The notes beneath the pieces were generated by a model. That model saw nothing but the letters and a program-made list of their open reading frames with translations, was not told where the DNA came from and did not search any database. The position numbers and the translations under genes were made by a program. A DNA stretch of 50,990 bases from a virus (taxonomy: Duplodnaviria; Caudoviricetes), in the IMG/VR virus record IMGVR_UViG_3300017700_000695, positions 1-50,990 of that record; one strand, written 5' to 3'. Positions 5,133 to 50,990 of this stretch are shown one piece after another; within the stretch, counting starts at the first letter, position 1; each line of letters begins with the position of its first letter.

Positions 5133-7396
5133 TGCCCCGCAGTGACCGCGAGAAGGTGGAACTGACCGGCGACGAGGCGATCCTTGAGGAGGCGCGCGAA
5201 GCCTACGAGCTCGCGGTTGAAGTCGAGAACGAGAACCGTCTTGAGGCGATGGATGACATCAAGTTCGCCCGCCTGGGTGAGCAGTGGCCGGAGAAGGTCA
5301 AGCGCGACCGCGAACTCGACGGCCGCCCCTGCCTGACGATCAACCGCCTCCCGGCCTTCATCCGCCAGGTCGTCAACGATGCGCGGCAGAACAAGCCGGC
5401 CATCGCCGTCCACCCCGTGGACTCCGGGTCTGACCCCGAGACCGCGGAGATCTTCTCCGGTCTGATCCGCAACATCGAGCAGTCCAGCGACGCGGAAGTC
5501 GCCTATGACACCGCCCTCGACTTCGCGGTGACCGGCGGCTTCGGGTATTTCCGGATCAACACCCGCTACACCTCCGACGACAGCTTCGAGCAGGACCTGG
5601 TCATCGAGCGGGTGAGCAACCCGTTCAGCGTCTATGGCGACCCCAACAGCATGTCGGCCGACAGCGCCGATTGGAATGTGGCGTTCGTCGTCGAGAGCAT
5701 GCCCAAGGCGCAGTTCGAGAAGCGCTGGAAGGGCGCCGAGGCGGTTGACTGGGAGGTCAGCGGCTACGCCAGCCTTGAGGGCCCCTGGATGGACGGCGAC
5801 CGCGTCCTCGTGGCCGAATACTGGAAGCGCGAGGAGGTCCCCCGCAAGATCGTCGCCCTGTCCGACGGCCAGGTTGTTGGCCTCGACGTCTACACCGCGC
5901 AGAAGGCCAACTTCGACGCGCTCGGCGTCACCATCGTTGGCCGGCCCCGCGAGATCACCTCCAAGAAGGTCACCCAGTACATCATGACCGGCGCTGAGGT
6001 GCTGGAAACGGTGGAGTGGGCGGGCAAGTACATCCCGATCATCCCGGTCTATGGCGAAGAGCTCGTCGTCGACGGCAAGCGCCACCTCCGCTCCCTGGTC
6101 CGCGATGCGAAAGACCCGCAGCGGATGTTCAACTACTGGCGCACGACCTCGACCGAACTGGTGGCGCTGGCGCCCAAAGCGCCTTTCATCGGCCGCAAGG
6201 GCGCCTTCGAGACCGATGCGAGCAAGTGGGCGACGGCGAACGTCCAGACCCATGCCTATATCGAGTATGACGGGCCTGAGGCGCCGCAGCGCCAGCCCTT
6301 CTCCGGGGTCCCCGCCGGCGCGATCCAAGAGAGCCTGAACGCCGCCGACGACATGAAGTCCATCATGGGGCTCCACGACGCCAGCCTGGGCGCCAGGAGC
6401 AACGAGACCTCGGGCAAGGCCATCATGGCCCGCCAGCGCGAGGGCGACGTCTCGAACTTCCACTACATCGACAACCTGTCGCGGGCCATTCGCCATGCCG
6501 GCCGGATCCTGATCGACCTGATCCCGAAGGTCTACTCGACGGCCCGCATGGTCCGCGTCCTGGGGCCCGACGGAAAGCCGCATCAGGTCCCGCTCAAGGA
6601 GCCGGTGACGATCGACAAGAGGGACGAGAACGGCCAGATCGAGAAGATCACCCGGACCTTCGATCTCGCCGCGGGGAAATACGACGTCACGGTCTCGGCT
6701 GGGCCTTCGTTCACCTCGCGCCGCGAAGAAGCGGCGACGCAGATGATCGAGCTGATCCGGGCCTATCCGCCGGCGGCCCCCGTCATCGGCGACCTGCTGG
6801 CCCGCAATCTCGACTGGCCGGGCGCTGATGAAGTCGCCACCCGCCTGCGCGCCCTGGTTCCGCCGGAAGCGCGCGGGGAGGGCGACGCGCCCAACCCTGA
6901 GGTCGAGCAGGCCAAGGTCGTCGTCGCCCAGTTGCAAGAGCAGGGCGCGAAGCTCGGCGAGGAACTGAAGGCGGCCCAAGCCAAGCTCGAAGGCCAGGCC
7001 GCCGACCACGCCCTGGCGATGCGTAAGCTGGAGATCGATGGCGCGGACAAGGCCGCCAAGGCCGCCAACGACGCGGCGAAGCTCGAAATCGACCGCTTCA
7101 ACGCTGAGACCGCCCGCCTCAAGGCCATCGCGCCCCGCGGCGTCGCCACCGACCCGAACGCCCCGCCGCCGACGGTTCCGACCCCGGCGCAAGCCGAGGC
7201 CCAGGCTGACGAGATCGTCGCCGACGACCTGCCGCCCTCTGCTGCCGACCTCGCTGACGCCTCGGAAGACGTCGCTGAGCCGGTGATAGCCACCGAGCCC
7301 CCAATCGCCGCCCAGCCCGCCCTCGAGGCGGTCGCCGAGCCCGATCCTGACGCGCTGCCCCCCACGGCTGCCGATCTGGAACTGGAAGAAGCCTAG
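5132..7396 (+). CDS. P22-like portal protein with an acidic Pro/Ala-rich C-terminal tail
   Basis: 754 aa; GEQW, RPCLTIN, YIPIIPVYG, DAKDPQRMFNYW, SNETSGKAI, GKYDV.V..GPSF.SRR. Confidence 0.92.
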   Translation: MPRSDREKVELTGDEAILEEAREAYELAVEVENENRLEAMDDIKFARLGEQWPEKVKRDRELDGRPCLTINRLPAFIRQVVNDARQNKPAIAVHPVDSGSDPETAEIFSGLIRNIEQSSDAEVAYDTALDFAVTGGFGYFRINTRYTSDDSFEQDLVIERVSNPFSVYGDPNSMSADSADWNVAFVVESMPKAQFEKRWKGAEAVDWEVSGYASLEGPWMDGDRVLVAEYWKREEVPRKIVALSDGQVVGLDVYTAQKANFDALGVTIVGRPREITSKKVTQYIMTGAEVLETVEWAGKYIPIIPVYGEELVVDGKRHLRSLVRDAKDPQRMFNYWRTTSTELVALAPKAPFIGRKGAFETDASKWATANVQTHAYIEYDGPEAPQRQPFSGVPAGAIQESLNAADDMKSIMGLHDASLGARSNETSGKAIMARQREGDVSNFHYIDNLSRAIRHAGRILIDLIPKVYSTARMVRVLGPDGKPHQVPLKEPVTIDKRDENGQIEKITRTFDLAAGKYDVTVSAGPSFTSRREEAATQMIELIRAYPPAAPVIGDLLARNLDWPGADEVATRLRALVPPEARGEGDAPNPEVEQAKVVVAQLQEQGAKLGEELKAAQAKLEGQAADHALAMRKLEIDGADKAAKAANDAAKLEIDRFNAETARLKAIAPRGVATDPNAPPPTVPTPAQAEAQADEIVADDLPPSAADLADASEDVAEPVIATEPPIAAQPALEAVAEPDPDALPPTAADLELEEA

Positions 7397-17967: not shown

Positions 17968-19968
17968 ATGGCTAAGGCGAGCCTCGGCAAACTCGACACC
18001 CGCCAGCCGGTGGCTGTGGACCTCGCGAAGGTTCACGACATCACTGCGCGCATGAACACGCCGGCGGCTCCGCCGCAGATGTCGGCCGACTTCATCGCGC
18101 CTATCAACGTCCCCCAGCCCAAGGCCTGGCGCCCGAACGCGCTGGCGGTGCTGGATGGGGTTCTCGGCGGCATGACCTTCACCGAGAGCCGTCGCGCCGA
18201 GGAAGATCGCCACCGCGCCGAACTGGCCATGCCGCAGATGGAGGCCCTGAAGACCCGCCTCCTGACCGAACTCGGCAAGGCCGGGCCTGATGAACTGAAG
18301 GCCTATCTGACCAACCCCGGCGAGTTCGGGAAGAACATCGCCACGCGCTTGGCGGCCTCCGACCTCGCCGCCGGCTCGTCGCGCGTCTACGGAAACCCCG
18401 ACCAGGGCGGCAGCGTCTACACGGCGCCCAAGACCGACACCGCTGCCGGCCAGGCCTTCTCCTATGGCCCGGATGGGGTGAAGGCGCTCGGCGCCGTTCC
18501 GTTCGTGCCTGACTACGTGAACGTGAGCGAGGGCGGGAAGGCGGTTCCGAAGATGCCGATCCTGCCGCCTGGGTTTGGCGGCCCCGCGGCGATGGCCGCC
18601 AGCCTACCGCAGGTTGGCGAGGTGCGGCGCGTGGCGTCCGCCCCCCTTCCGGCGGCTGTGGCGCAGCGGATCCGCTCGACCGCAACCGCGCTCGGCGCTC
18701 CGCCTGAGGCGCTGTCCTATCTGGAGCGCCTGGCGCAGATCGAGAGCGCCGGAGACCCTGCGGCTCGCAACGGCTCCTCGACGGGCGTGTTCCAGTTCCA
18801 ACCGGCCACCTTCGCGACCGTCGGCGGCGGCGACATCAACTCTGTCGAGGATCAGACCAAGGCCGCGCTGCGGCTCGCCGCCCAGGACCGCAAGAAGCTC
18901 GTCGAGCTCGGGATCGAGCCGACCGACGCCAACCTCTACATCATGCACCAGCAAGGCGCTGGCGGCGGCCCTGCGCTGCTGACGGCCCCGCCTGAGGTCA
19001 ACGCCGTCGCGGCCCTGGCTCCGGCCTATGGCGGCGACGCGAACAAGGCCCGCCGCGCCATCGTCGGCAATGGCGGAACCGCCGACATGACGGCCGGCGA
19101 GTTCACCGACATGTGGCGCCGGAAGTGGGGCGGCTCCGCGGCCCCAGCTCCACGCGTCAGCCCGACGGGCGGCGACCCCGCCGGCACGGTCTACGGCAAA
19201 GAGAAGGCCCAGCCCCGCCCGATGACGTCTGAAGAGCGCGTCGCCTGGAAAATCCCCGAGGGCGTCCCCGCGCTCATGAAGGCGGATGGCACGCCCGACG
19301 TCATCTCGTTGCCGGGCGGCAACTCCAGCCCTCGGAAGACCGAGGCGGACTTCCGAAAGTCGTTCGACGCCCTCGGTGAGGTCAAAGAATATCGTGCGAT
19401 CAGCAACGCCTACCGCACGATCCAGCGCCTCTCAAACGAGGACACCCCGGCCGGCGACATCTCCATGCTGTTCTCGTACATGAAGATGTTGGACCCCACG
19501 AGCGTCGTTCGAGAGGGAGAGTTTGCGACCGCCCAAAACGCCACGGGCATTCCTGGCCAGGTCCAAAACGCCTACAACCGCGCCATCAACGGCACTCGTC
19601 TTGCGCCGAAGCAGCGGGAGGATTTCCGCAACCAGGCCCGGAACATCTACCTGACCCGGGCCGACCGTTTCGACGAGATCGCGAACGAATATCGAGGGTA
19701 CGCGACGGCCTATGACGTCGATCCGGACAACGTCGTGAAGTTGCGCGACGACGCCGAGGCCCAAGCGCCAGGCCCATCGCGTCCGGCGGGCTGGAGCAAG
19801 GCCCTTCCGGCGCCGATGCTTGAGACCGCGAAGCAATTCAAGGGGGCCAAATCGGCGGGCGGCTCTCTCGACAATCCCTTCCTTCCGACCACGGAGGCGC
19901 AGTATGCAAAGCTTCCGCCTGGTGCTCACTACGTCTTCACCGACGGCTCGATCCGGGTGAAACGCTGA
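17968..19968 (+). CDS. Ejection protein with a lytic transglycosylase-like domain
   Basis: LAQIESAGDP..RN.SSTGVFQF, LYIMHQQGAGG; C-terminal KMLDP.SVVREGEF domain. Confidence 0.75.
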   Translation: MAKASLGKLDTRQPVAVDLAKVHDITARMNTPAAPPQMSADFIAPINVPQPKAWRPNALAVLDGVLGGMTFTESRRAEEDRHRAELAMPQMEALKTRLLTELGKAGPDELKAYLTNPGEFGKNIATRLAASDLAAGSSRVYGNPDQGGSVYTAPKTDTAAGQAFSYGPDGVKALGAVPFVPDYVNVSEGGKAVPKMPILPPGFGGPAAMAASLPQVGEVRRVASAPLPAAVAQRIRSTATALGAPPEALSYLERLAQIESAGDPAARNGSSTGVFQFQPATFATVGGGDINSVEDQTKAALRLAAQDRKKLVELGIEPTDANLYIMHQQGAGGGPALLTAPPEVNAVAALAPAYGGDANKARRAIVGNGGTADMTAGEFTDMWRRKWGGSAAPAPRVSPTGGDPAGTVYGKEKAQPRPMTSEERVAWKIPEGVPALMKADGTPDVISLPGGNSSPRKTEADFRKSFDALGEVKEYRAISNAYRTIQRLSNEDTPAGDISMLFSYMKMLDPTSVVREGEFATAQNATGIPGQVQNAYNRAINGTRLAPKQREDFRNQARNIYLTRADRFDEIANEYRGYATAYDVDPDNVVKLRDDAEAQAPGPSRPAGWSKALPAPMLETAKQFKGAKSAGGSLDNPFLPTTEAQYAKLPPGAHYVFTDGSIRVKR

Positions 19969-21677: not shown

Positions 21678-21837
21678 CGGCGGCGAAGACCGCCAAGCCG
21701 GGCTCATCCGGCAACTTGATATCAAGTAAGACCGCAGTTCCGGTGCAGTACAGCCACCACAGGGCCGTCTTCCACGGGAATCGCCAGCCGCGTGCGACCA
21801 CTCGGAACTCAGCGTCAATGATTTCGCGGTCGGCCAT
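21556..21837 (-). CDS. Small two-TM membrane protein (candidate superinfection exclusion)
   Basis: IIDAEFRVV followed by two hydrophobic segments; antisense to the ejection operon. Confidence 0.55.
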   Translation of the reverse strand: MADREIIDAEFRVVARGWRFPWKTALWWLYCTGTAVLLDIKLPDEPGLAVFAAAMAWPVAAFAKALAGPLRSSEEAAILKAQLSGRRGPSKPK

Positions 21838-21879
21838 CGGCGGCGACTATGCCACCAATCGGCGAAACTACAATTCCGG

Positions 21880-22092
21880 TCACGCCTGAGGAGAGCGGAG
21901 GCCCATCGTTACCAAGTAGTCCGCCACCAGTCGGCGCAGGGCCTCAGGGCGCGAAGGGCGTGGATCGGGCTGCTCTGCGATCCAGCGGTCTAGGTCAGCC
22001 AGGAGATCTGGCGGAACACGCACGTTTACGGGCACCGCCTCGACCTTCGGGCGGCCTCTGGTTTTTCTGGCGCTAGGTATTGCGTTTGTCAT
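21880..22092 (-). CDS. Ribbon-helix-helix (Arc/Mnt/CopG-like) regulator
   Basis: RGRP, PVNVRVPPDLLADLDRWI, SRPEALRRLV. Confidence 0.85.
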   Translation of the reverse strand: MTNAIPSARKTRGRPKVEAVPVNVRVPPDLLADLDRWIAEQPDPRPSRPEALRRLVADYLVTMGLRSPQA

Positions 22093-22108
22093 TTTCTGGC
22101 GCTAACAA
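22063..22108 (+). promoter_or_regulatory. Putative promoter with a duplicated operator
   Basis: TTTTCTGGCGCTA at 22063-22075 and 22092-22104, overlapping TTGCGT-N17-TAACAA. Confidence 0.6.
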
Positions 22109-22177
22109 TATCGGACCGGCGGAGAGGGTGCAACCTCTCAACCGGCCCTAACCAGAACCCGACGAGGAGTATTCGTC

Positions 22178-22525
22178 ATGGCCCAGGCTGCCCCAGCCTC
22201 TACCACCCGTCGCGCGCTACTGTCAGTAGGCGCCGCGCTCCCCGCCATCATCGCGACCCCTGTCATCGCCAAGGAGATCGGAAAAGGAGAGGCGTGGCGC
22301 TTGAGAAAGCGCGCATTCATCGAGCAGGTCGCAGGCTTCTCGCCGAATGGCCGGTTCGTCGCGACCCGCGCGATGGCGATGGACCTTGATCCGGACGACT
22401 GCATCATGATCGAGCTGGCCGGGCCGCGTCACCTTCGGCCGCAACTGCACTTCCAGCGCGACGGGGACACGTCCGTAACTGTTGTCGGGCCGCGAATGGC
22501 GATCCTTCATGGGCCGGTGCTCTGA
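22178..22525 (+). CDS. Hypothetical protein, first gene of the RAMP cassette
   Basis: GAGGAG RBS; TRRALL plus hydrophobic N-terminus; stop overlaps the next ATG. Confidence 0.6.
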   Translation: MAQAAPASTTRRALLSVGAALPAIIATPVIAKEIGKGEAWRLRKRAFIEQVAGFSPNGRFVATRAMAMDLDPDDCIMIELAGPRHLRPQLHFQRDGDTSVTVVGPRMAILHGPVL

Positions 22526-23160
22526 TGGCCGCCTCCACCAGCATCGAACTGCCGCCGCTGAATATCCAAACCATCGACATTCCGGTGATTGGAGACAGCC
22601 CGCTCATCTCTCACGCTTGGTCCGCCAAGGCGAAGAAGATGATGCTGGACAAGCACATGAAGAAGGCAGGCGCCGGACGGGTGGCAAAGGACCCGTTCCA
22701 AGACTTTGCGGAGACGTTGTACTGGCTCGATGGGGTGCCCGAGAAGCCCACGGAAGAGGACATCGAGGGCGGTCGTTTCGGCTTCCCAGCTATCGCCTTC
22801 AAAGCCGCTGCTGTCACGGCGGTCACCAGCATGGGCGGCATGACGAAGGTCATGGCTCGGCAGTGTTTCCACATCGTTGGCGAGTTCGTGGAGCTTCAAG
22901 GGCCTCCGCCCTCGATGCGCTTCGACATCACCAAGGTCGGCATGACGACCGACACGAGATTCCGCGCGGAGTTCGAAACCTGGGGAGCCATCCTCCGCGT
23001 CCAGCACAACGCCAACGTCCTCTCGGCAGAACAGGTCATCAGCCTGTTCGAGGCAGGCGGGTTCGGCGTCGGCATCGGTGACTGGAGGCCCGAACGCGAT
23101 GGCGTTCACGGTCGCTTCCACGTGGCTAAAACCGGGGAGACTATCCCGTGCCGGGCGTGA
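22525..23160 (+). CDS. Small RAMP/Cas7-like protein (Vipr-like effector candidate)
   Basis: First strand IDIPVIGDSPLISH; FGFPAIAFKAA resembles the RAMP IPGSSxKG motif; C-terminal Gly-rich loop GFGVGIGDWRP..DG.HGRF.V; lies near a GGY-NN array. Confidence 0.75.
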   Translation: MAASTSIELPPLNIQTIDIPVIGDSPLISHAWSAKAKKMMLDKHMKKAGAGRVAKDPFQDFAETLYWLDGVPEKPTEEDIEGGRFGFPAIAFKAAAVTAVTSMGGMTKVMARQCFHIVGEFVELQGPPPSMRFDITKVGMTTDTRFRAEFETWGAILRVQHNANVLSAEQVISLFEAGGFGVGIGDWRPERDGVHGRFHVAKTGETIPCRA

Positions 23161-23624
23161 ACTACGCATGGCGGCCCGGCTCACGCATCAGCATCGACGC
23201 CGGCAAGGCGGGGAGGGAGTTGGAGCGCATCCGGCTCGGCAACAGCGGCGCCCTAACTCAGGAGGCGGTCCTAGCGCAGGCAAGGTCCGCCAACTCCGCC
23301 CTGCACCCGCACTTTGAGTGGGATGATACTGTCGCGGCGGAGAAACATCGCCTCGGACAAGCCGGTGAGTTGATACGCTCGATCACTATAGACGTGTCTC
23401 GGTCAAATCTAGAAACCAAGCCCATCCGGGCGTTCGTCAACGTCCATGTCGGCGAAAGGCAGCACTACACTTCAACGCTGCATGCTATGTCGGACAGGGA
23501 ACTTCGCGCACAGGTGCTCGCCAAAGCCTGGGCCGATTTGGAGGCGTGGCGGGATCGTCACGCAGAGCTCACCGAGTTTGCGAAGATCTTCTCCGCGATC
23601 GATGAGGCTCGGAGCGCCAAATAG
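23148..23624 (+). CDS. Accessory protein between the RAMP gene and the array
   Basis: Overlapping start; ELERI, G.LT..AVL..AR...S.LHPHFEWDD..AAE..RL.QA..LIRSI. Confidence 0.7.
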   Translation: MPGVNYAWRPGSRISIDAGKAGRELERIRLGNSGALTQEAVLAQARSANSALHPHFEWDDTVAAEKHRLGQAGELIRSITIDVSRSNLETKPIRAFVNVHVGERQHYTSTLHAMSDRELRAQVLAKAWADLEAWRDRHAELTEFAKIFSAIDEARSAK

Positions 23625-23636
23625 GCTCCAAAACAG

Positions 23637-23808
23637 GGCAGGCGTGGCTGCGCAAGGCAGGGCTTGGCACGGTACGGCTGGGCGCGGCAGGCGTGGTAAG
23701 GCGAGGTTTGGTCGGGCGAGGTATGGCTCGGCAAGGCTCGGCTAGGCAGGCAAGGCGAGGCTTGTCGACGCTAGGCGGGGCGAGCCAAGGCTAGTCACCG
23801 CAAGGCCA
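23637..23808 (+). repeat. GGY-NN pentamer array in three GGCA-delimited units (putative guide RNA array)
   Basis: 32 pentamers parsed by hand, 26 starting GGC/GGT; 4-nt GGCA register shifts at 23637, 23686 and 23745. Confidence 0.9.
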
Positions 23809-23814
23809 ATATCG

Positions 23815-23844
23815 GGGCGGTTGGAGCGATCCAGCCGCCCTTCT
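23815..23844 (+). terminator. Hairpin closing the array
   Basis: GGGCGGTTGGA-GCGA-TCCAGCCGCCC (11-bp stem with one G-U, GNRA loop), then TTCT. Confidence 0.7.
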
Positions 23845-23974
23845 GATGCCCACTCCAAGGTCGATGACCTCTCGGCTCTCCATGCCGCCCAACATGCCAC
23901 GGCGCGGCCCTGGCGTGAACCCCGACCATCCGCGCCGTCGAGAAGACGCCGCATTCCCTCGAAGGACCCGCCTC

Positions 23975-24202
23975 ATGGACGCCAGCCAGATCCCGACGAA
24001 CGCCACCATCGTCACACCGCACGACACCAACCCGGCCAACGGCTGCGCGGTGCTCTACGCCGGCGGCGCCTGCACCGTGATCACGGCGACGGGCGCGAGC
24101 GTCACGCTCCCGACCGACTTCGCTGGGGTCGTGATCCCGGTGCAAATTCAGAAGGTCATGGATACGGGAACCGACGCCACGTCCGTGCTGGTGTTCCGTT
24201 AA
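23975..24202 (+). CDS. Head spike base-like protein (resembles the RcGTA Rcc01079 family)
   Basis: VTPHD..., VLYAGG, G..VTL, G.VIPVQIQKVM.TGTDAT pattern; GAAGGA RBS. Confidence 0.65.
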   Translation: MDASQIPTNATIVTPHDTNPANGCAVLYAGGACTVITATGASVTLPTDFAGVVIPVQIQKVMDTGTDATSVLVFR

Positions 24203-25326
24203 TGCTGGCGCTCCGCCTCGGCATCCCCAGTGTCACCTCCCTCAAGGGTGTGGGGTATCCAGGCGCCTACAACGTCACGCCCGCCTGGCGCGCGTCGGTC
24301 AAGACCAACTGGGCCACGCGCGACCTGTTTTTGCTTGGCGACAGTACGTCGCGAGGGTTTGGGGCCGGCGAAGATGTGACCGGTTGGCCGAACTCCGCGC
24401 GCCACTCGCTATCGGCAGTCCTCGCGGACCTGATCGCGGCGCGCAGCTACAACGTGGCGGATGACAGCTTCTTTGGCGGCGGCTCTGCGGCCCCGGCATC
24501 GAACTACCCGGTAACGGATGATCGCTTCGTCTTCGGCTCAGGCTGGGAGGCGTCGGCCTCCCCGGCAGAGACCGTTGGCGGCCCATGGATCATCAACACG
24601 ACCACAACCGATCCCATCGTGGTCACGCCCGAATTGTCCTGGGATCGCGCCTACGTCTACTACCGCCGCACGACAGGGGAAATGACCCTGCAAGTGGACG
24701 CAGGCGGGCTGACGACAGTTGACACGGCGCCCGGCTCGAATGGGCTTGTGCAGATCGCCGGCATGACCCCAACCCTTGGGAGCCATACCCTGACGCTCGC
24801 CCGCACGAGCGGAACGGTCCAGTTGGCCGGGATCGAGTTTTTCGACACGAGCACCGACCGCAAGCAGGTTCTCAACCTTTCGCGGTCGGGCTGGACGGCC
24901 AGCAACGCCACGACTTCGGCGACGCAAGCTGCGGCCCTGCCGACGTTGGGGAAGCTGTTCGACCAGAGAAGTTCGTCGCTGCTAATGCTCAACTTCGGCA
25001 TCAACGACGAAAACGGCGGGATAACGACGGCGTCCTTCAAGACCTCGATGCAGATCCTTATCGACGCTGCGGTGGCAAAGAGCGCCCCGGTCCTGCTGGT
25101 CGGCCACAACGCCACTTCCGCGACGCCGGGGGCGGGCTATATCCAGGCGCATCGGGAGTTGGCTGACACGAACGGCATCCCCTACTTCAACCTCGCCGCG
25201 CTCTACTCGTGGGCGCAGATTGTGGCGAACGGCTGGAATTTCGACGGCTCCTCGCATCTGAACGCCGATGGCTATGCTGCGATGGCTGCGAAGCTCGATG
25301 GCTTCCTGGCCTGGGCGGTCCTCTAG
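24202..25326 (+). CDS. SGNH/GDSL esterase-containing spike/fibre protein
   Basis: LLGDS, SGWT, FGIND and DGSSH blocks; short N-terminal LALRLGI anchor; coupled to the spike base gene. Confidence 0.8.
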   Translation: MLALRLGIPSVTSLKGVGYPGAYNVTPAWRASVKTNWATRDLFLLGDSTSRGFGAGEDVTGWPNSARHSLSAVLADLIAARSYNVADDSFFGGGSAAPASNYPVTDDRFVFGSGWEASASPAETVGGPWIINTTTTDPIVVTPELSWDRAYVYYRRTTGEMTLQVDAGGLTTVDTAPGSNGLVQIAGMTPTLGSHTLTLARTSGTVQLAGIEFFDTSTDRKQVLNLSRSGWTASNATTSATQAAALPTLGKLFDQRSSSLLMLNFGINDENGGITTASFKTSMQILIDAAVAKSAPVLLVGHNATSATPGAGYIQAHRELADTNGIPYFNLAALYSWAQIVANGWNFDGSSHLNADGYAAMAAKLDGFLAWAVL

Positions 25327-25355
25327 ACCCCCACCCTCCAAAGTGAGTCTGACTT

Positions 25356-25565
25356 ATGCGAGCAAAGTTCCTGCCAGAAGAGCTGAAAACCTTGAAGCCT
25401 CACATGGCCCCCTTGGTCGGATATGAGGCCGATTGGGAATGGGCTGGCGAGATGGAGGAGGGCCCTTATACGGGCCAGGCTATCTATTACCTGAGCCGCA
25501 GTGACGCGCGCTATCGGGAGACCAGGGCGTGCTGGGTTCCTGCGGAAGATTTGGTCGCCGGCTAG
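25356..25565 (+). CDS. Hypothetical protein
   Basis: 69-aa ORF; G.Y.GQ and WVPAEDL motifs. Confidence 0.5.
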   Translation: MRAKFLPEELKTLKPHMAPLVGYEADWEWAGEMEEGPYTGQAIYYLSRSDARYRETRACWVPAEDLVAG

Positions 25566-26227
25566 GTCGGTTGGCCGGTGATGGCGGCCTCAATTGAAGC
25601 CTCCACCTCCCAAGCAATTTGCCGAACGGTGGCATAGTGAGCGTCCGTCATGGCCTTTCCGCTTATCCGGACTTGAGGGGCGGCGTCCGACCTCATCTGA
25701 ATGTATGCTGCGTCGGTGAGAACTGGGTTCAAGTGGGCGCCGCCATCCTTGTTCCTGAGGTTGAACACCAGGCTTTTCCTGCTGAGCGTCGGCCCGGCGC
25801 TGGAGGCATAGATTTTCTCGTCCCACCATTTGGAGAAAGCCAGGCTCCGTTTCCAAGCGGCTCCTGCGGGAACGGGCCCCGCCGGGACGTATGTGGTTCC
25901 GTTATCGTCCATTCGCACCAGCAACAGGGGCAGGGGCGGCTGCATCATTTGTTGGCCTGGGCGGCGGACCCGGTTTCCCAGGTGTTCTCCATAAAGTCCG
26001 CGCGACGAGCTGATGAAACGCATGGAAGGCTTTAGTCCCGCCTGGCCCAACAGCGATGATGTTGGTGACCGGCCGCTCTGGTCGTGAACCAAAATGTGAA
26101 TCGCCGTTGCCATGCGCTCTGCTTCCCAAAGCTCGCCTCGATCGAAGGCAGCGCATGAGGACCGGAGGCCGCGGCGCTGGATGGCCAGCTTTTCGGCAAT
26201 GTCATCTCGCGGACTCGGATGGGTCAA
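25562..26227 (-). CDS. Hypothetical accessory (moron) protein
   Basis: Lower GC, antisense; FDRG, WW.E.I, RNKDGGAH, VRQIAWE. Confidence 0.65.
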   Translation of the reverse strand: MTHPSPRDDIAEKLAIQRRGLRSSCAAFDRGELWEAERMATAIHILVHDQSGRSPTSSLLGQAGLKPSMRFISSSRGLYGEHLGNRVRRPGQQMMQPPLPLLLVRMDDNGTTYVPAGPVPAGAAWKRSLAFSKWWDEKIYASSAGPTLSRKSLVFNLRNKDGGAHLNPVLTDAAYIQMRSDAAPQVRISGKAMTDAHYATVRQIAWEVEASIEAAITGQPT

Positions 26228-50758: not shown

Positions 50759-50990
50759 GTGAGCGTCGCTCAGCTCATCAGAGACATGGCGGCGGCTGGG
50801 GCGCCGGCCGAGGCTATCGCCTTGGCGGTCGACGCTATTGAGGCCGCCGAGGCGAAGCTTGGCGCCCAGCGCGAGGCTGCCCGAGACCGGAAACGGCGGC
50901 AACGGGCGGGACAGTCGCGTGACGGTCACGGGACAGTCACGGGACATTCCCACGACAGTCACGCCCAACCCCCCCCCCCCCCCCCCCCTC
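50759..50990 (+). CDS. N-terminal part of the replication initiator (runs off the window end)
   Basis: GTG start; SVAQLIRDMAAAGAPAEAIALAV...AARDRKRRQR; contains iterons; no stop before the end. Confidence 0.7.
   Translation, partial: MSVAQLIRDMAAAGAPAEAIALAVDAIEAAEAKLGAQREAARDRKRRQRAGQSRDGHGTVTGHSHDSHAQPPPPPPP
50908..50962 (+). repeat. Five tandem 11-bp iteron-like repeats (putative origin)
   Basis: GGGACAGTCGC, GTGACGGTCAC, GGGACAGTCAC, GGGACATTCCC, ACGACAGTCAC. Confidence 0.75.

What the first reader, a model, noticed from the sequence alone, without database searches (positions are those of the whole stretch)
23637..23808. Array is split into three guide-sized units by GGCA register shifts
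Hand parse. Unit 1 (23637-23685): GGCA plus 9 pentamers, NN = GT TG AA AG TT AC AC TG GC. Unit 2 (23686-23744): GGCA plus 11 perfect GGY pentamers, NN = GT AA GA TT CG GA AT TC AA TC TA. Unit 3 (23745-23808): GGCA plus 12 pentamers, NN = AA GA TT GA TA GG GA AA TA AC AA CA, with five degenerate triplets. The NN positions are AT-rich and non-repetitive in a GC-rich genome, which is unlike slippage microsatellites. Distal decay resembles the trailer end of a CRISPR array. GGCAGGC may be a processing or filament-start signal (inference).
Basis: partly seen in the sequence, partly recalled or inferred. Interest (0 to 1): 0.85.

Follow-up and report, generated by a model that had tools for sequence, protein, structure and literature searches.

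The report
Phage VIPR guide-RNA array, staggered type
The pentamer array is the guide-RNA array of a phage VIPR system, a recently described CRISPR-like RNA-guided gene-silencing weapon, and its first guide is aimed at the same weapon gene in rival phages.

Summary
Window 23637-23808 holds about 35 GGYNN pentamers, cut by 4-nt GGCA steps into units of 9, 11 and 12 repeats.

It is the vrRNA array of a VIPR system (Viral Interference Programmable Repeat; bioRxiv 10.64898/2026.04.26.720920). Directly upstream lie a Vipr RAMP protein (22525-23160; hhalign to SUSP1 Vipr 97.8 %, E 7e-13) and a conserved accessory gene (23148-23624). This trio recurs in 99 and 93 of 121 loci. It also occurs in cluster F mycobacteriophages.

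The GGCA step is a family-wide punctuation: 943 of 1200 4-nt steps, with units peaking at 9-10 repeats. It fits the "staggered arrays" that the preprint shows but did not confirm by RNA-seq.

Under the published 1-nt-skip code:
- Unit 1 matches 18/18 positions in the vipr genes of three other phage contigs. The match is antisense, with every skip on a wobble base, and it ends at the unit borders. The phage's own vipr scores 13/18.
- Unit 2 fits 10 of 11 codon classes in the closest homologues of the phage's own tail-lysin gene. The own gene scores 17/22.
- Unit 3 has no target found.

Expression and processing were not tested. This is a new member of a known kind.

The parts
22525..23160 (+). 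vipr gene: 211-aa Vipr protein, a minimal Cas7-like RAMP that would bind one GGYNN repeat per protomer
   Evidence: phmmer hit to PDB 36pp_D 'SUSP1 Vipr protein', E 0.0044. hhalign of the family alignment A1 against SUSP1 Vipr gives 97.8 %, E 7e-13, over 169 columns. AF2 model pLDDT is 92.3. The top Foldseek PDB hits are all Cas7-family RAMPs (type VII Cas7, Csm3, Cmr6), E about 1e-4. H30, R147 and D186-W187-R188 align with SUSP1 H17, R138 and D177-W178-R179. The family is found next to arrays in 99 of 121 loci.
23148..23624 (+). vap-like accessory gene (158 aa, conserved LHxxFEWDDxxAA motif); family phrog_15946, function unknown
   Evidence: The family lies next to arrays on the same strand in 93 of 121 loci. 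PHROG hit E 1.7e-21. AF2 pLDDT is 95.0. There is no significant PDB fold match; the best is E 0.47, and the weak hits are mostly winged-helix DNA binders. No similarity to SUSP1 vap1 (hhalign probability 0.2 %).
23637..23685 (+). vrRNA unit 1: GGCA plus 9 pentamers, NN = GT TG AA AG TT AC AC TG GC. An anti-vipr guide.
   Evidence: Its 1-nt-skip pattern has 7 exact hits in IMG/VR. Three of them lie antisense and in frame in vipr genes of L135, L136 and L139. The reversed control pattern gives 0 hits. The match does not continue into unit 2.
23686..23744 (+). vrRNA unit 2: GGCA plus 11 perfect GGY pentamers, NN = GT AA GA TT CG GA AT TC AA TC TA. Probable guide against the tail-lysin gene of related phages.
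   Evidence: The best match in the phage's own genome is 17/22, in frame in gene 17968-19968. The three closest homologues of that protein carry VKEFRDVSNSY, which fits 10 of 11 codon classes of the guide, against 8 of 11 for the own protein. Only protein sequences were seen. No exact DNA hit in the collections searched.
23745..23808 (+). vrRNA unit 3: GGCA plus 12 pentamers, five with degenerate triplets; target unknown
   Evidence: Parse. No exact hit for the full pattern or a 10-NN sub-pattern in IMG/VR. The best own-genome match is 16/24, at chance level. A contig in run X3 carries 23741-23842 with 2 differences, behind different upstream pentamers.
23815..23841 (+). Terminal 12-bp hairpin with a GCGA loop; probable 3' end or terminator of the vipr-vap-array transcript (inferred)
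   Evidence: It is the only element kept in the centroid RNA fold of 23625-23860. Similar GC-rich hairpins follow the arrays of the closest relatives L037 and L001. It is not general in the family: mean MFE of 3' flanks is -18.6 against -20.2 for controls, n = 71, p = 0.12. The simple terminator scan did not call it.
23029..23054 (-). Own vipr site homologous to the unit 1 target; it matches the guide at only 13 of 18 positions (self-avoidance)
19381..19412 (+). Own tail-lysin gene site homologous to the presumed unit 2 target; 17 of 22, below the 80 % threshold used in the preprint
   Evidence: The gene 17968-19968 carries a transglycosylase-like region and matches phrog_13634.
21880..22092 (-). 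Divergent ribbon-helix-helix repressor gene; a possible local regulator, and its membership in the system is uncertain
   Evidence: Pfam RHH_1 E 5e-4, just under the cut-off, and PHROG 'transcriptional repressor' E 6.7e-7. Homologues lie upstream of vipr, also divergent, in L037 and L139 only.

Best explanation
Window 22525-23841 is a complete VIPR locus: vipr, a vap-like accessory gene and a 'staggered' vrRNA array.

Inferred steps. The three parts are probably transcribed together on the + strand, ending at the 23815-23841 hairpin. Vipr protomers bind the RNA one per GGYNN repeat, hiding each GGY and presenting each NN. At a GGCA step only one base separates two GGY triplets, so the 5-nt protein register cannot run on. 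The array therefore yields three separate ribonucleoproteins of 9, 11 and 12 protomers, either as separate filaments on one RNA or after trimming by host RNases.

Established for the SUSP1 and P. fulva systems, assumed here. Each RNP reads double-stranded DNA with the pattern NNxNNx and silences transcription.

Shown here. Unit 1 matches exactly the vipr genes of related but distinct VIPR systems, near the 3' end of the gene, with every skipped base on a codon wobble position. The phage's own vipr has 5 mismatches.

Shown only at the protein level. Unit 2 fits the tail-lysin gene of the phage's closest relatives better than the phage's own copy.

The locus thus looks like a weapon against closely related competing phages. 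It would disarm their VIPR and block a virion gene while sparing itself.
For: Array parse and chance control.

Vipr identity:
- PDB 36pp_D, E 0.0044.
- hhalign to SUSP1 Vipr 97.8 %, E 7e-13.
- AF2 pLDDT 92.3, with Cas7/Csm3 as the top folds.
- GGY-binding residues conserved.

Linkage:
- The Vipr family is present in 99 of 121 loci and the accessory family in 93 of 121, on the array strand.
- The same trio occurs in 27 Mycobacterium and 5 Gordonia phage records.

Junction:
- 943 of 1200 4-nt steps are GGCA.
- 1033 internal units have a mode of 9-10 pentamers.

Targets:
- Unit 1 is 18/18 in the vipr of L135, L136 and L139, and the L135 and L139 sites differ only at 4 skip bases.
- The reversed control gives 0 hits.
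- Own site 13/18.
- Unit 2 fits 10/11 codon classes in P0002-P0004, against 8/11 in the own protein.
- No own-genome match reaches 80 %.

Composition: N5 resembles codon position 2 and N4 is 70 % purine like codon position 1, in 634 guides.

Mechanism: taken from the Results sections of 10.64898/2026.04.26.720920 and 10.64898/2026.04.26.720927, which I read.
Against: - No RNA data: no RNA run holds the locus. Transcription, unit ends and processing are therefore untested.
- The preprint states that staggered arrays, unlike the ribozyme and single-vrRNA types, were not confirmed by sRNA-seq.
- Unit 3 has no target. Unit 2 has no DNA-level target: 0 exact hits in IMG/VR and in metagenome contigs, and 2 hits at 3 mismatches in 401 genomes against 2 control hits.
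- Four of the 7 IMG/VR hits of unit 1 and all 8 metagenome hits lie outside any vipr or vap homologue, so the bare 18-base pattern does hit by chance.
- Pooled tests of 634 guides against 1.08 Mb of loci showed no clear preference for the 1-nt skip (guides with at least 85 % match: 53, 62, 50, 46 for skips 0-3). They showed no excess over shuffled guides in vipr or vap genes.
- In the frame test the excess is carried by a few guides: 16 distinct guides against a null mean of 10.6 and a null maximum of 16.
- The accessory protein is unrelated to vap1 and has no significant fold match.
- 242 of 1033 internal units have only 0-4 pentamers, too short to be guides by the published range.
Confidence: 0.9

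Rival explanations
1. The array is one long vrRNA or one continuous Vipr filament. The GGCA steps would be tolerated single-base deletions without a boundary function, and guides would be read in windows that ignore them.
For: Unit lengths vary from 0 to 43 pentamers, and 242 of 1033 internal units have only 0-4 pentamers. No RNA ends are known.
Against: 79 % of 4-nt steps are the same word, GGCA, while GGCT, GGCG and GGCC each reach at most 40 of 1200. Note that the search pattern enforced at least one GGCA per locus. Unit length peaks sharply at 9-10. The unit 1 target match covers exactly its nine NN and does not continue into unit 2 at any spacing (3-10 of 22). The unit 2 peptide match also spans exactly its eleven codons. 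Arrays start and often end with GGCAGGC.
Confidence: 0.06
2. It is a CRISPR-like adaptive array: units are acquired in a polarised way at the gene-proximal end and decay at the distal end.
For: Unit 3 is the most degenerate. One X3 contig shares unit 3 and the hairpin (2 differences in 102 nt) but has different pentamers upstream. Close relatives L037 and L001 have different numbers of units and different NN.
Against: No Cas1- or Cas2-like gene is among the ten neighbouring ORFs scanned. GGY conformity falls only from about 0.90 to 0.864 in the last fifth of 89 arrays. The architecture is 5-nt scaffolds, not repeat-spacer. The preprint describes no acquisition mechanism for VIPR (sections read).
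Confidence: 0.1
3. It is a DNA-level element: a G-rich R-loop or G-quadruplex replication origin, or an array of 5-bp protein-binding sites, with no RNA guide function.
For: The G-rich strand is the sense strand, and GGNNN repeats could form two-tetrad quadruplexes. This was my reading before the Vipr match.
Against: There is tight linkage to a RAMP protein homologous to a solved RNA-binding Vipr. The NN of unit 1 encode an exact gapped match to another gene, which a structural DNA element would not need.
Confidence: 0.02
4. It is a slippage microsatellite or a translated repeat (ORF 23446-23745), with no function of its own.
For: An ORF of 99 aa runs into the array. Some mycobacteriophage records annotate a hypothetical protein over their arrays.
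Against: A 5-nt period is not a codon period. TAA and TAG stops occur in the array. The NN are non-repetitive. The architecture is conserved across phyla together with two linked genes.
Confidence: 0.01

Closest known systems
Type II VIPR of Escherichia phage SUSP1 and the Pseudomonas fulva prophage (bioRxiv 10.64898/2026.04.26.720920 and 10.64898/2026.04.26.720927; PDB 36pp)
   Same: A homologous Vipr protein with conserved GGY-binding residues. A two-gene operon plus GGY/NN repeats. 9-12 repeats per unit. A gapped NNx match to targets with the skip on the wobble base. No own-genome match of 80 % or more.
   Different: The accessory gene is unrelated to vap1. In SUSP1 (L134) each vrRNA is a separate GGT-rich block with its own 3' tail. 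Here the units abut through 4-nt GGCA steps, share one terminal hairpin and are GGC-rich. Vipr identity is low (21 % over the hhalign alignment).
[quoted passage not shown]
   Same: The legend says that individual vrRNAs derive from positions overlapping by 1 nt, and that the end of one marks the start of the next. This is what a 4-nt step in a 5-nt array looks like.
   Different: I could read only the legend. The figure and the supplementary tables were not available, so I cannot say whether the GGCA word, this Vipr clade or this accessory family is the one shown, nor which of types I-VII it is. The paper says only the ribozyme and single-vrRNA architectures were confirmed by sRNA-seq.
vipr-targeting solo vrRNAs of SUSP1-family phages (bioRxiv 10.64898/2026.10.15.759431, section 8 passages)
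   Same: [quoted passage not shown]
   Different: Here the anti-vipr guide sits in a phage that keeps its own vipr and vap, in an alphaproteobacterial-type GC-rich phage of a different VIPR clade.
Class 1 CRISPR Cas7 backbone on crRNA (Csm3, Cmr4/6, type VII Cas7)
   Same: RAMP fold, G-loop and thumb. One protomer per fixed RNA step. Periodic interruption of guide-target pairing (preprint text).
   Different: A 5-nt step with only 2 pairing bases, against a 6-nt step with 5 pairing bases. No repeat-spacer array, no Cas6 handle and no cas1/cas2 seen among the ten neighbouring ORFs.

Membership tests
VIPR system | A Vipr protein (minimal RAMP: RRM core, G-loop, thumb) encoded next to the repeats | tested here: met
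   Searches show sequence and profile homology to SUSP1 Vipr. Searches give a confident model whose best PDB folds are Cas7-family RAMPs. The fold library predates the Vipr entries.
VIPR system | Residues that hold GGY in SUSP1 Vipr (H17, R138, D177, W178, R179) | tested here: met
   They align with H30, R147, D186, W187 and R188. R147 and R188 are invariant in 51 family members. W187 is G and D186 is E in one large subfamily.
VIPR system | vrRNA made of tandem GGY/NN pentamers, 9-16 per guide, with a conserved scaffold and hypervariable NN | tested here: met
   Units have 9, 11 and 12 repeats. Relatives L037 and L001 keep GGY and GGCA but have different NN.
VIPR system | A vipr-accessory (vap) gene in the operon | tested here: inconclusive
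   A second conserved gene is present in 93 of 121 loci. It is unrelated to vap1 and has no significant fold match. Whether it is one of vap2-6 cannot be told without the supplements.
VIPR system | Natural targets in competing mobile elements under the 1-nt-skip rule; no self-target of 80 % or more | tested here: met
   Unit 1 is 18/18 in three rival vipr genes, and the reversed control gives 0 hits. Unit 2 is supported at the protein level only. Unit 3 has none. The best own-genome matches are 13/18, 17/22 and 16/24.
VIPR system | vrRNAs are expressed and co-purify with Vipr | not testable with these tools
   No RNA run holds the locus.
Type II VIPR (SUSP1-like) | vap1 accessory gene; each vrRNA capped by its own conserved 3' tail or pseudoknot | tested here: not met
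   No similarity to vap1. The units abut at GGCA, with one hairpin after the whole array. The SUSP1 arrays were read for comparison.
CRISPR-Cas | Array of 24-48-nt direct repeats alternating with spacers | tested here: not met
   Only 5-nt scaffolds are present; Tandem Repeats Finder and the parse find no longer repeat unit.
CRISPR-Cas | cas1/cas2 adaptation genes | not tested
   Only ten ORFs around the array were scanned against Pfam and PHROGs, with no Cas family among the hits. The rest of the record was not scanned.

The most novel reading that the evidence does not exclude
The 4-nt GGCA step is a protein-register punctuation mark. By shortening one spacer from NN to N, it ends one Vipr filament and starts the next, so a single transcript is measured out into many guides without a ribozyme, a repeat handle or a dedicated nuclease. 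On this reading the arrays of up to about 240 repeats are arsenals of 20 or more guides. Such arsenals would be aimed largely at close relatives, including their vipr genes, and each phage would protect itself by a few non-synonymous differences at the targeted sites.
Probability: 0.35. Interest if true: 0.6.

Novelty: new member of a known kind. Interest (0 to 1): 0.45.

Why it matters
VIPR was described only in 2026 and was characterised in two gammaproteobacterial systems. This locus, and the more than 120 relatives found with its junction motif, belong to a clade with a different accessory gene and the 'staggered' array form. The preprint shows that form but did not verify it by RNA-seq.

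Two points here give that form a testable logic:
- The GGCA word is the specific junction.
- Two of the three units have target matches that stop at the junctions.

The same system sits in cultured cluster F mycobacteriophages and in Gordonia phages that grow on laboratory strains, so RNA ends and silencing can be tested directly.

The unit 1 result adds a natural case of VIPR-against-VIPR targeting with self-avoidance, outside the SUSP1 family.

Tried and rejected
- Rfam scan of 22000-26000 at E up to 10: only four sub-threshold chance hits.
- Pfam, NCBIfam and PADLOC gave no family for the two genes.
- Before the Vipr hit I considered a TRAP-like ring binder, an R-loop or G4 origin, a centromere-like site array and a Rho or CsrA sponge. 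I dropped these.
- Literature search for 'pentanucleotide repeat' plus 'mycobacteriophage': one irrelevant SSR survey, seen in the listing only.
- Exact target scans: unit 2 full and two 10-NN sub-patterns, unit 3 full and one 10-NN sub-pattern. All gave 0 hits in IMG/VR. Unit 2 gave 0 in metagenome contigs.
- Unit 2 with up to 3 mismatches in 401 genomes of the order of G001: 2 hits against 2 for the backwards control, which is chance level.
- Unit 1 in metagenome contigs: 8 hits, none near a vipr or vap homologue.
- The 4 low-GC IMG/VR hits of unit 1 lie out of frame in an unrelated 235-aa ORF. I take them as one chance hit.
- Pooled skip-rule and shuffled-guide tests on the fetched loci: no clear signal. 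The frame test was suggestive only.
- No guide of L135, L136 or L139 matches the window above the shuffled null.
- The 3' hairpin is not a family-wide feature. No sigma-70-like promoter was found in 21800-24300.
- No RNA holder is listed for the locus. The joints that skip 81 and 154 nt in X3 contigs were laid at 85 % likeness in a metagenome, so I did not use them.
- The type (I-VII) could not be assigned. The supplementary tables and figures were not readable, and the main text does not name vap2-6 or say which type has staggered arrays.

Full report
OBSERVATION

The hand parse is exact. Window 23637-23808 reads as follows:
- Unit 1 (23637-23685): GGCA plus 9 pentamers.
- Unit 2 (23686-23744): GGCA plus 11 perfect GGY pentamers.
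- Unit 3 (23745-23808): GGCA plus 12 pentamers, five of them with degenerate triplets.

The first GGCA opens the array, so there are two internal -1 shifts. An 8-pentamer GGYNN pattern with up to 2 mismatches occurs 12 times on the + strand of the record, all inside the array. It never occurs on the - strand, and never when the pattern is read backwards.

The NN are 66 % A+T in a 66 % G+C record. The array is intergenic and starts 12 nt after the stop of ORF 23148-23624. A 12-bp hairpin with a GCGA loop follows at 23815-23841. It is the only structure that survives in the centroid fold. The record is a 50,990-base IMG/VR virus, rated complete by CheckV.

THE ARRAY TYPE IS WIDESPREAD AND LINKED TO TWO GENES

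A blastn of 22100-25400 against cultured phages matched only through the array. It hit 27 Mycobacterium phage records (Cheoctovirus, cluster F) at 69-74 % identity. Saal and Brocalys carry GGCNN arrays with the same GGCAGGC steps, in the intergenic region upstream of gp51-gp52.

The arrays there hold from about 20 to about 240 pentamers.

I clustered all ORFs within 3 kb of the arrays in 121 loci, the window included. Two families lie on the array strand:
- One of about 220 aa, in 99 of 121 loci. It contains window 22525-23160 and Saal gp51.
- One of about 160 aa, in 93 of 121 loci. It contains window 23148-23624 and Saal gp52.

The usual order is gene A, gene B, array. In cluster F the array comes first.

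IDENTIFICATION AS A VIPR SYSTEM

Gene A hits PDB 36pp_D, 'SUSP1 Vipr protein' (E 0.0044). That led to three 2026 preprints on VIPR, Viral Interference Programmable Repeat. I read the following:
- The Results, Discussion and several Methods sections of 10.64898/2026.04.26.720920.
- The first part of the Results of 10.64898/2026.04.26.720927.
- One Methods section and passages of 10.64898/2026.10.15.759431.
- Passages of 10.64898/2026.10.21.760802.

According to these papers, VIPR consists of a minimal RAMP protein (Vipr), an accessory gene (vap) and vrRNAs of 9-16 GGY/NN repeats. One Vipr protomer binds each repeat. The GGY bases are held by the protein and the NN pair with DNA, skipping every third target base. 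Binding silences transcription, and natural targets are competing phages, satellites and other VIPR systems.

The evidence that gene A is a Vipr:
- The family alignment A1 (51 sequences) aligns with the SUSP1 vipr product (L134 28474-29061, minus strand) at 97.8 % probability, E 7e-13, over 169 columns.
- The AF2 model has pLDDT 92.3. Its best PDB folds are all Cas7-family RAMPs: type VII Cas7, Csm3 and Cmr6, E about 1e-4, TM 0.4-0.5. The fold library ends before the Vipr entries were released.
- Window H30, R147 and D186-W187-R188 align with the SUSP1 residues reported to hold G1, G2 and Y3: H17, R138, D177, W178 and R179.

WHAT DIFFERS FROM THE CHARACTERISED SYSTEMS

The accessory protein has a conserved LHxxFEWDDxxAA motif and folds confidently (pLDDT 95.0). 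It shows no similarity to SUSP1 vap1. It has no significant PDB match; the best is E 0.47, and the weak hits are mostly winged-helix DNA binders.

In SUSP1 each vrRNA is a separate GGT-rich block with its own tail. Here the units abut through a 4-nt step and share one terminal hairpin. The preprint mentions 'staggered arrays with overlapping vrRNAs'. The Fig. S18 legend says that vrRNAs derive from positions overlapping by 1 nt and that the end of one marks the start of the next. The preprint also says that only the ribozyme and single-vrRNA architectures were confirmed by sRNA-seq.

I could not see the figure or the supplements, so I cannot assign the type (I-VII) or the vap number.

THE GGCA STEP

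I parsed all arrays of the 121 loci. The steps were:
- 9185 steps of 5 nt.
- 1200 steps of 4 nt.
- 172 steps of 6 nt.

Of the 4-nt units, 943 are GGCA; GGCT (40), GGCG (29) and GGCC (29) are rare. The search pattern enforced at least one GGCA per locus, which inflates the figure somewhat. It cannot explain the other boundaries within the same arrays.

The 1033 units bounded by two steps have a main peak at 7-13 pentamers (mode 9-10). A second class of 242 units has only 0-4 pentamers. Arrays begin, and often end, with GGCAGGC.

GGY conformity by fifths of 89 arrays is 0.886, 0.899, 0.901, 0.886, 0.864. The terminal hairpin is shared with the closest relatives L037 and L001 but is not general across the family (p = 0.12).

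TARGETS

I applied the published rule: NN joined by one wildcard, both strands.

Own genome. No own-genome match reaches 80 %. The best are 13/18, 17/22 and 16/24.

Unit 1. The pattern gives 7 exact hits in IMG/VR, and the same pattern read backwards gives 0.
- Three hits (L135, L136, L139; G+C 0.61-0.65) lie inside vipr genes whose products are 64-66 % identical to the window's Vipr.
- These hits are antisense. They cover the codons A-Q-V-V-N-L-F-Q-T just before the G-loop, with every skipped base on the wobble position.
- The L135 and L139 sites differ at 4 of the 8 skip bases and at none of the 18 NN positions.
- The match does not continue into unit 2 at any spacing (3-10 of 22).
- The homologous site of the window's own vipr (23029-23054) matches only 13/18.
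- The other 4 hits are one identical site in low-GC contigs, out of frame in an unrelated ORF.
- The same pattern gives 8 hits in the much larger metagenome collection, none near a vipr or vap homologue.

So the bare pattern does hit by chance about once per collection of this size. That leaves the placement of three hits in vipr, in frame, as the signal.

Unit 2. It has no exact DNA hit. Its best own-genome match (19381-19412, 17/22) lies in frame in the phage's own 666-aa tail-lysin gene, where the peptide is VKEYRAISNAY.

I searched 120 homologues of that region. The three closest (P0002-P0004, 65-74 % identical) read VKEFRDVSNSY. That fits 10 of the 11 codon classes of the guide, against 8 of 11 for the own protein. 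This is protein-level evidence only. I picked this gene because of the own-genome match.

Unit 3. No hit.

Family-wide tests were weak:
- No clear preference for the 1-nt skip against 1.08 Mb of loci.
- No excess over shuffled guides in vipr or vap genes.
- An excess of antisense in-frame hits to other loci's vipr: 36 against a null of 15.8 +/- 5.6 (maximum 30). It is carried by a few guides: 16 distinct guides against a null mean of 10.6 (maximum 16).

The composition of 634 guides fits targets at codon positions 1 and 2. N5 resembles codon position 2, N4 is 70 % purine, and both are unlike position 3.

VARIATION AMONG RELATIVES

L037 (Vipr 70 % identical) has two units of 10 and 12 repeats. 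L001 (accessory protein 63 % identical) has about three units. In both, GGY and GGCA are kept and the NN are different.

No RNA run holds the locus. In one groundwater metagenome run, a 242-nt contig carries 23741-23842 with 2 differences behind different pentamers. This is a weak hint of unit turnover upstream of a retained distal unit.

MECHANISM

Shown here:
- The architecture.
- The homology of Vipr and its key residues.
- The family-wide GGCA junction.
- The exact gapped match of unit 1 to rival vipr genes, with self-avoidance.

Taken from the literature on SUSP1 and P. fulva:
- One protomer per repeat.
- NNx reading of double-stranded DNA.
- Transcriptional silencing.

Inferred:
- Co-transcription of vipr, vap and the array up to the hairpin.
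- The one-base spacer at GGCA breaking the protomer register, so that each unit forms its own RNP.
- The accessory protein acting on DNA.
- Unit 2 acting on relatives' tail-lysin gene.

VERDICT

The kind is already described (VIPR, 2026). This locus is a new member of a clade with a different accessory gene and the unverified staggered array form.

Noticed in passing
L002 2941-3207 (Saal), L003 2925-3177 (Brocalys), L082 (Donkeykong); records listed: 27 cluster F (Cheoctovirus) Mycobacterium phage records and 5 Gordonia phage records carry this VIPR clade. In cluster F the array lies upstream of the two genes, between the antirepressor side and the excisionase. Several records annotate a 'hypothetical protein' over the array. 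Pseudomonas phage LESphi2 shows a partial Vipr hit. Cyanophage Cy-LDV1 shows a hit to the accessory protein only.
   Followed up: partly
L095 12350-13581 (-), L117 6719-8007 (-), L079 7155-8230 (-): Very long arrays of about 190-240 pentamers (up to 1.2 kb), with internal higher-order duplications of whole units.
   Followed up: partly
window 21880-22092 (-); L037 7155-7322 (-); L139 3458-3649 (-): A ribbon-helix-helix repressor gene lies divergently upstream of vipr in the window and in two related loci (50-56 % identity). It may regulate the VIPR operon.
   Followed up: partly
L119 guide at oriented position 5878 -> L122 10710-10741 (+): An 11-repeat guide of L119 matches 20/22 NN in frame in the thumb region (EDMVRVGMGTS) of the vipr gene of L122. 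On its own this is near the chance level for the pool searched.
   Followed up: partly
L117 and L019 guides: Two guides match conserved vipr motifs (V-x-[FYW]-D-x-D-Q-F and EARDFDADF) at 15-16 of 18, antisense and in frame, in many other loci. They may be broad anti-vipr guides.
   Followed up: no
L137, L138, L140, L141; ORF L140 6730-7437: Four low-GC IMG/VR contigs share one identical exact match to the unit 1 pattern, inside an unrelated 235-aa ORF and out of the wobble frame. I take it as a chance hit, but this is not proven.
   Followed up: partly
window 22178-22525 (+): A 115-aa ORF directly upstream of vipr begins with a twin-arginine-like signal (TRRALL...). It has no homologue in the other loci, and a contig of run X2 covers it.
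   Followed up: partly
window 23975-24202 and 24202-25326: Downstream of the array lie a spike-base protein of the RCAP_rcc01079 family (NCBIfam E 5e-8) and a GDSL-type lipase or acylhydrolase. These are tail genes of the kind known from Rhodobacter gene transfer agents.
   Followed up: no
window 50907-50988: The record ends with 5.2 copies of an 11-nt tandem repeat followed by a run of 20 C. This may be an assembly-end artefact.
   Followed up: no
window 23648-23813 in run X3: Contigs of a groundwater metagenome lay on the array with joints that skip 81 and 154 nt, and one carries a 31-nt insert of other pentamers. They may be array variants of related strains, or they may be mis-lays at 85 % likeness.
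   Followed up: no
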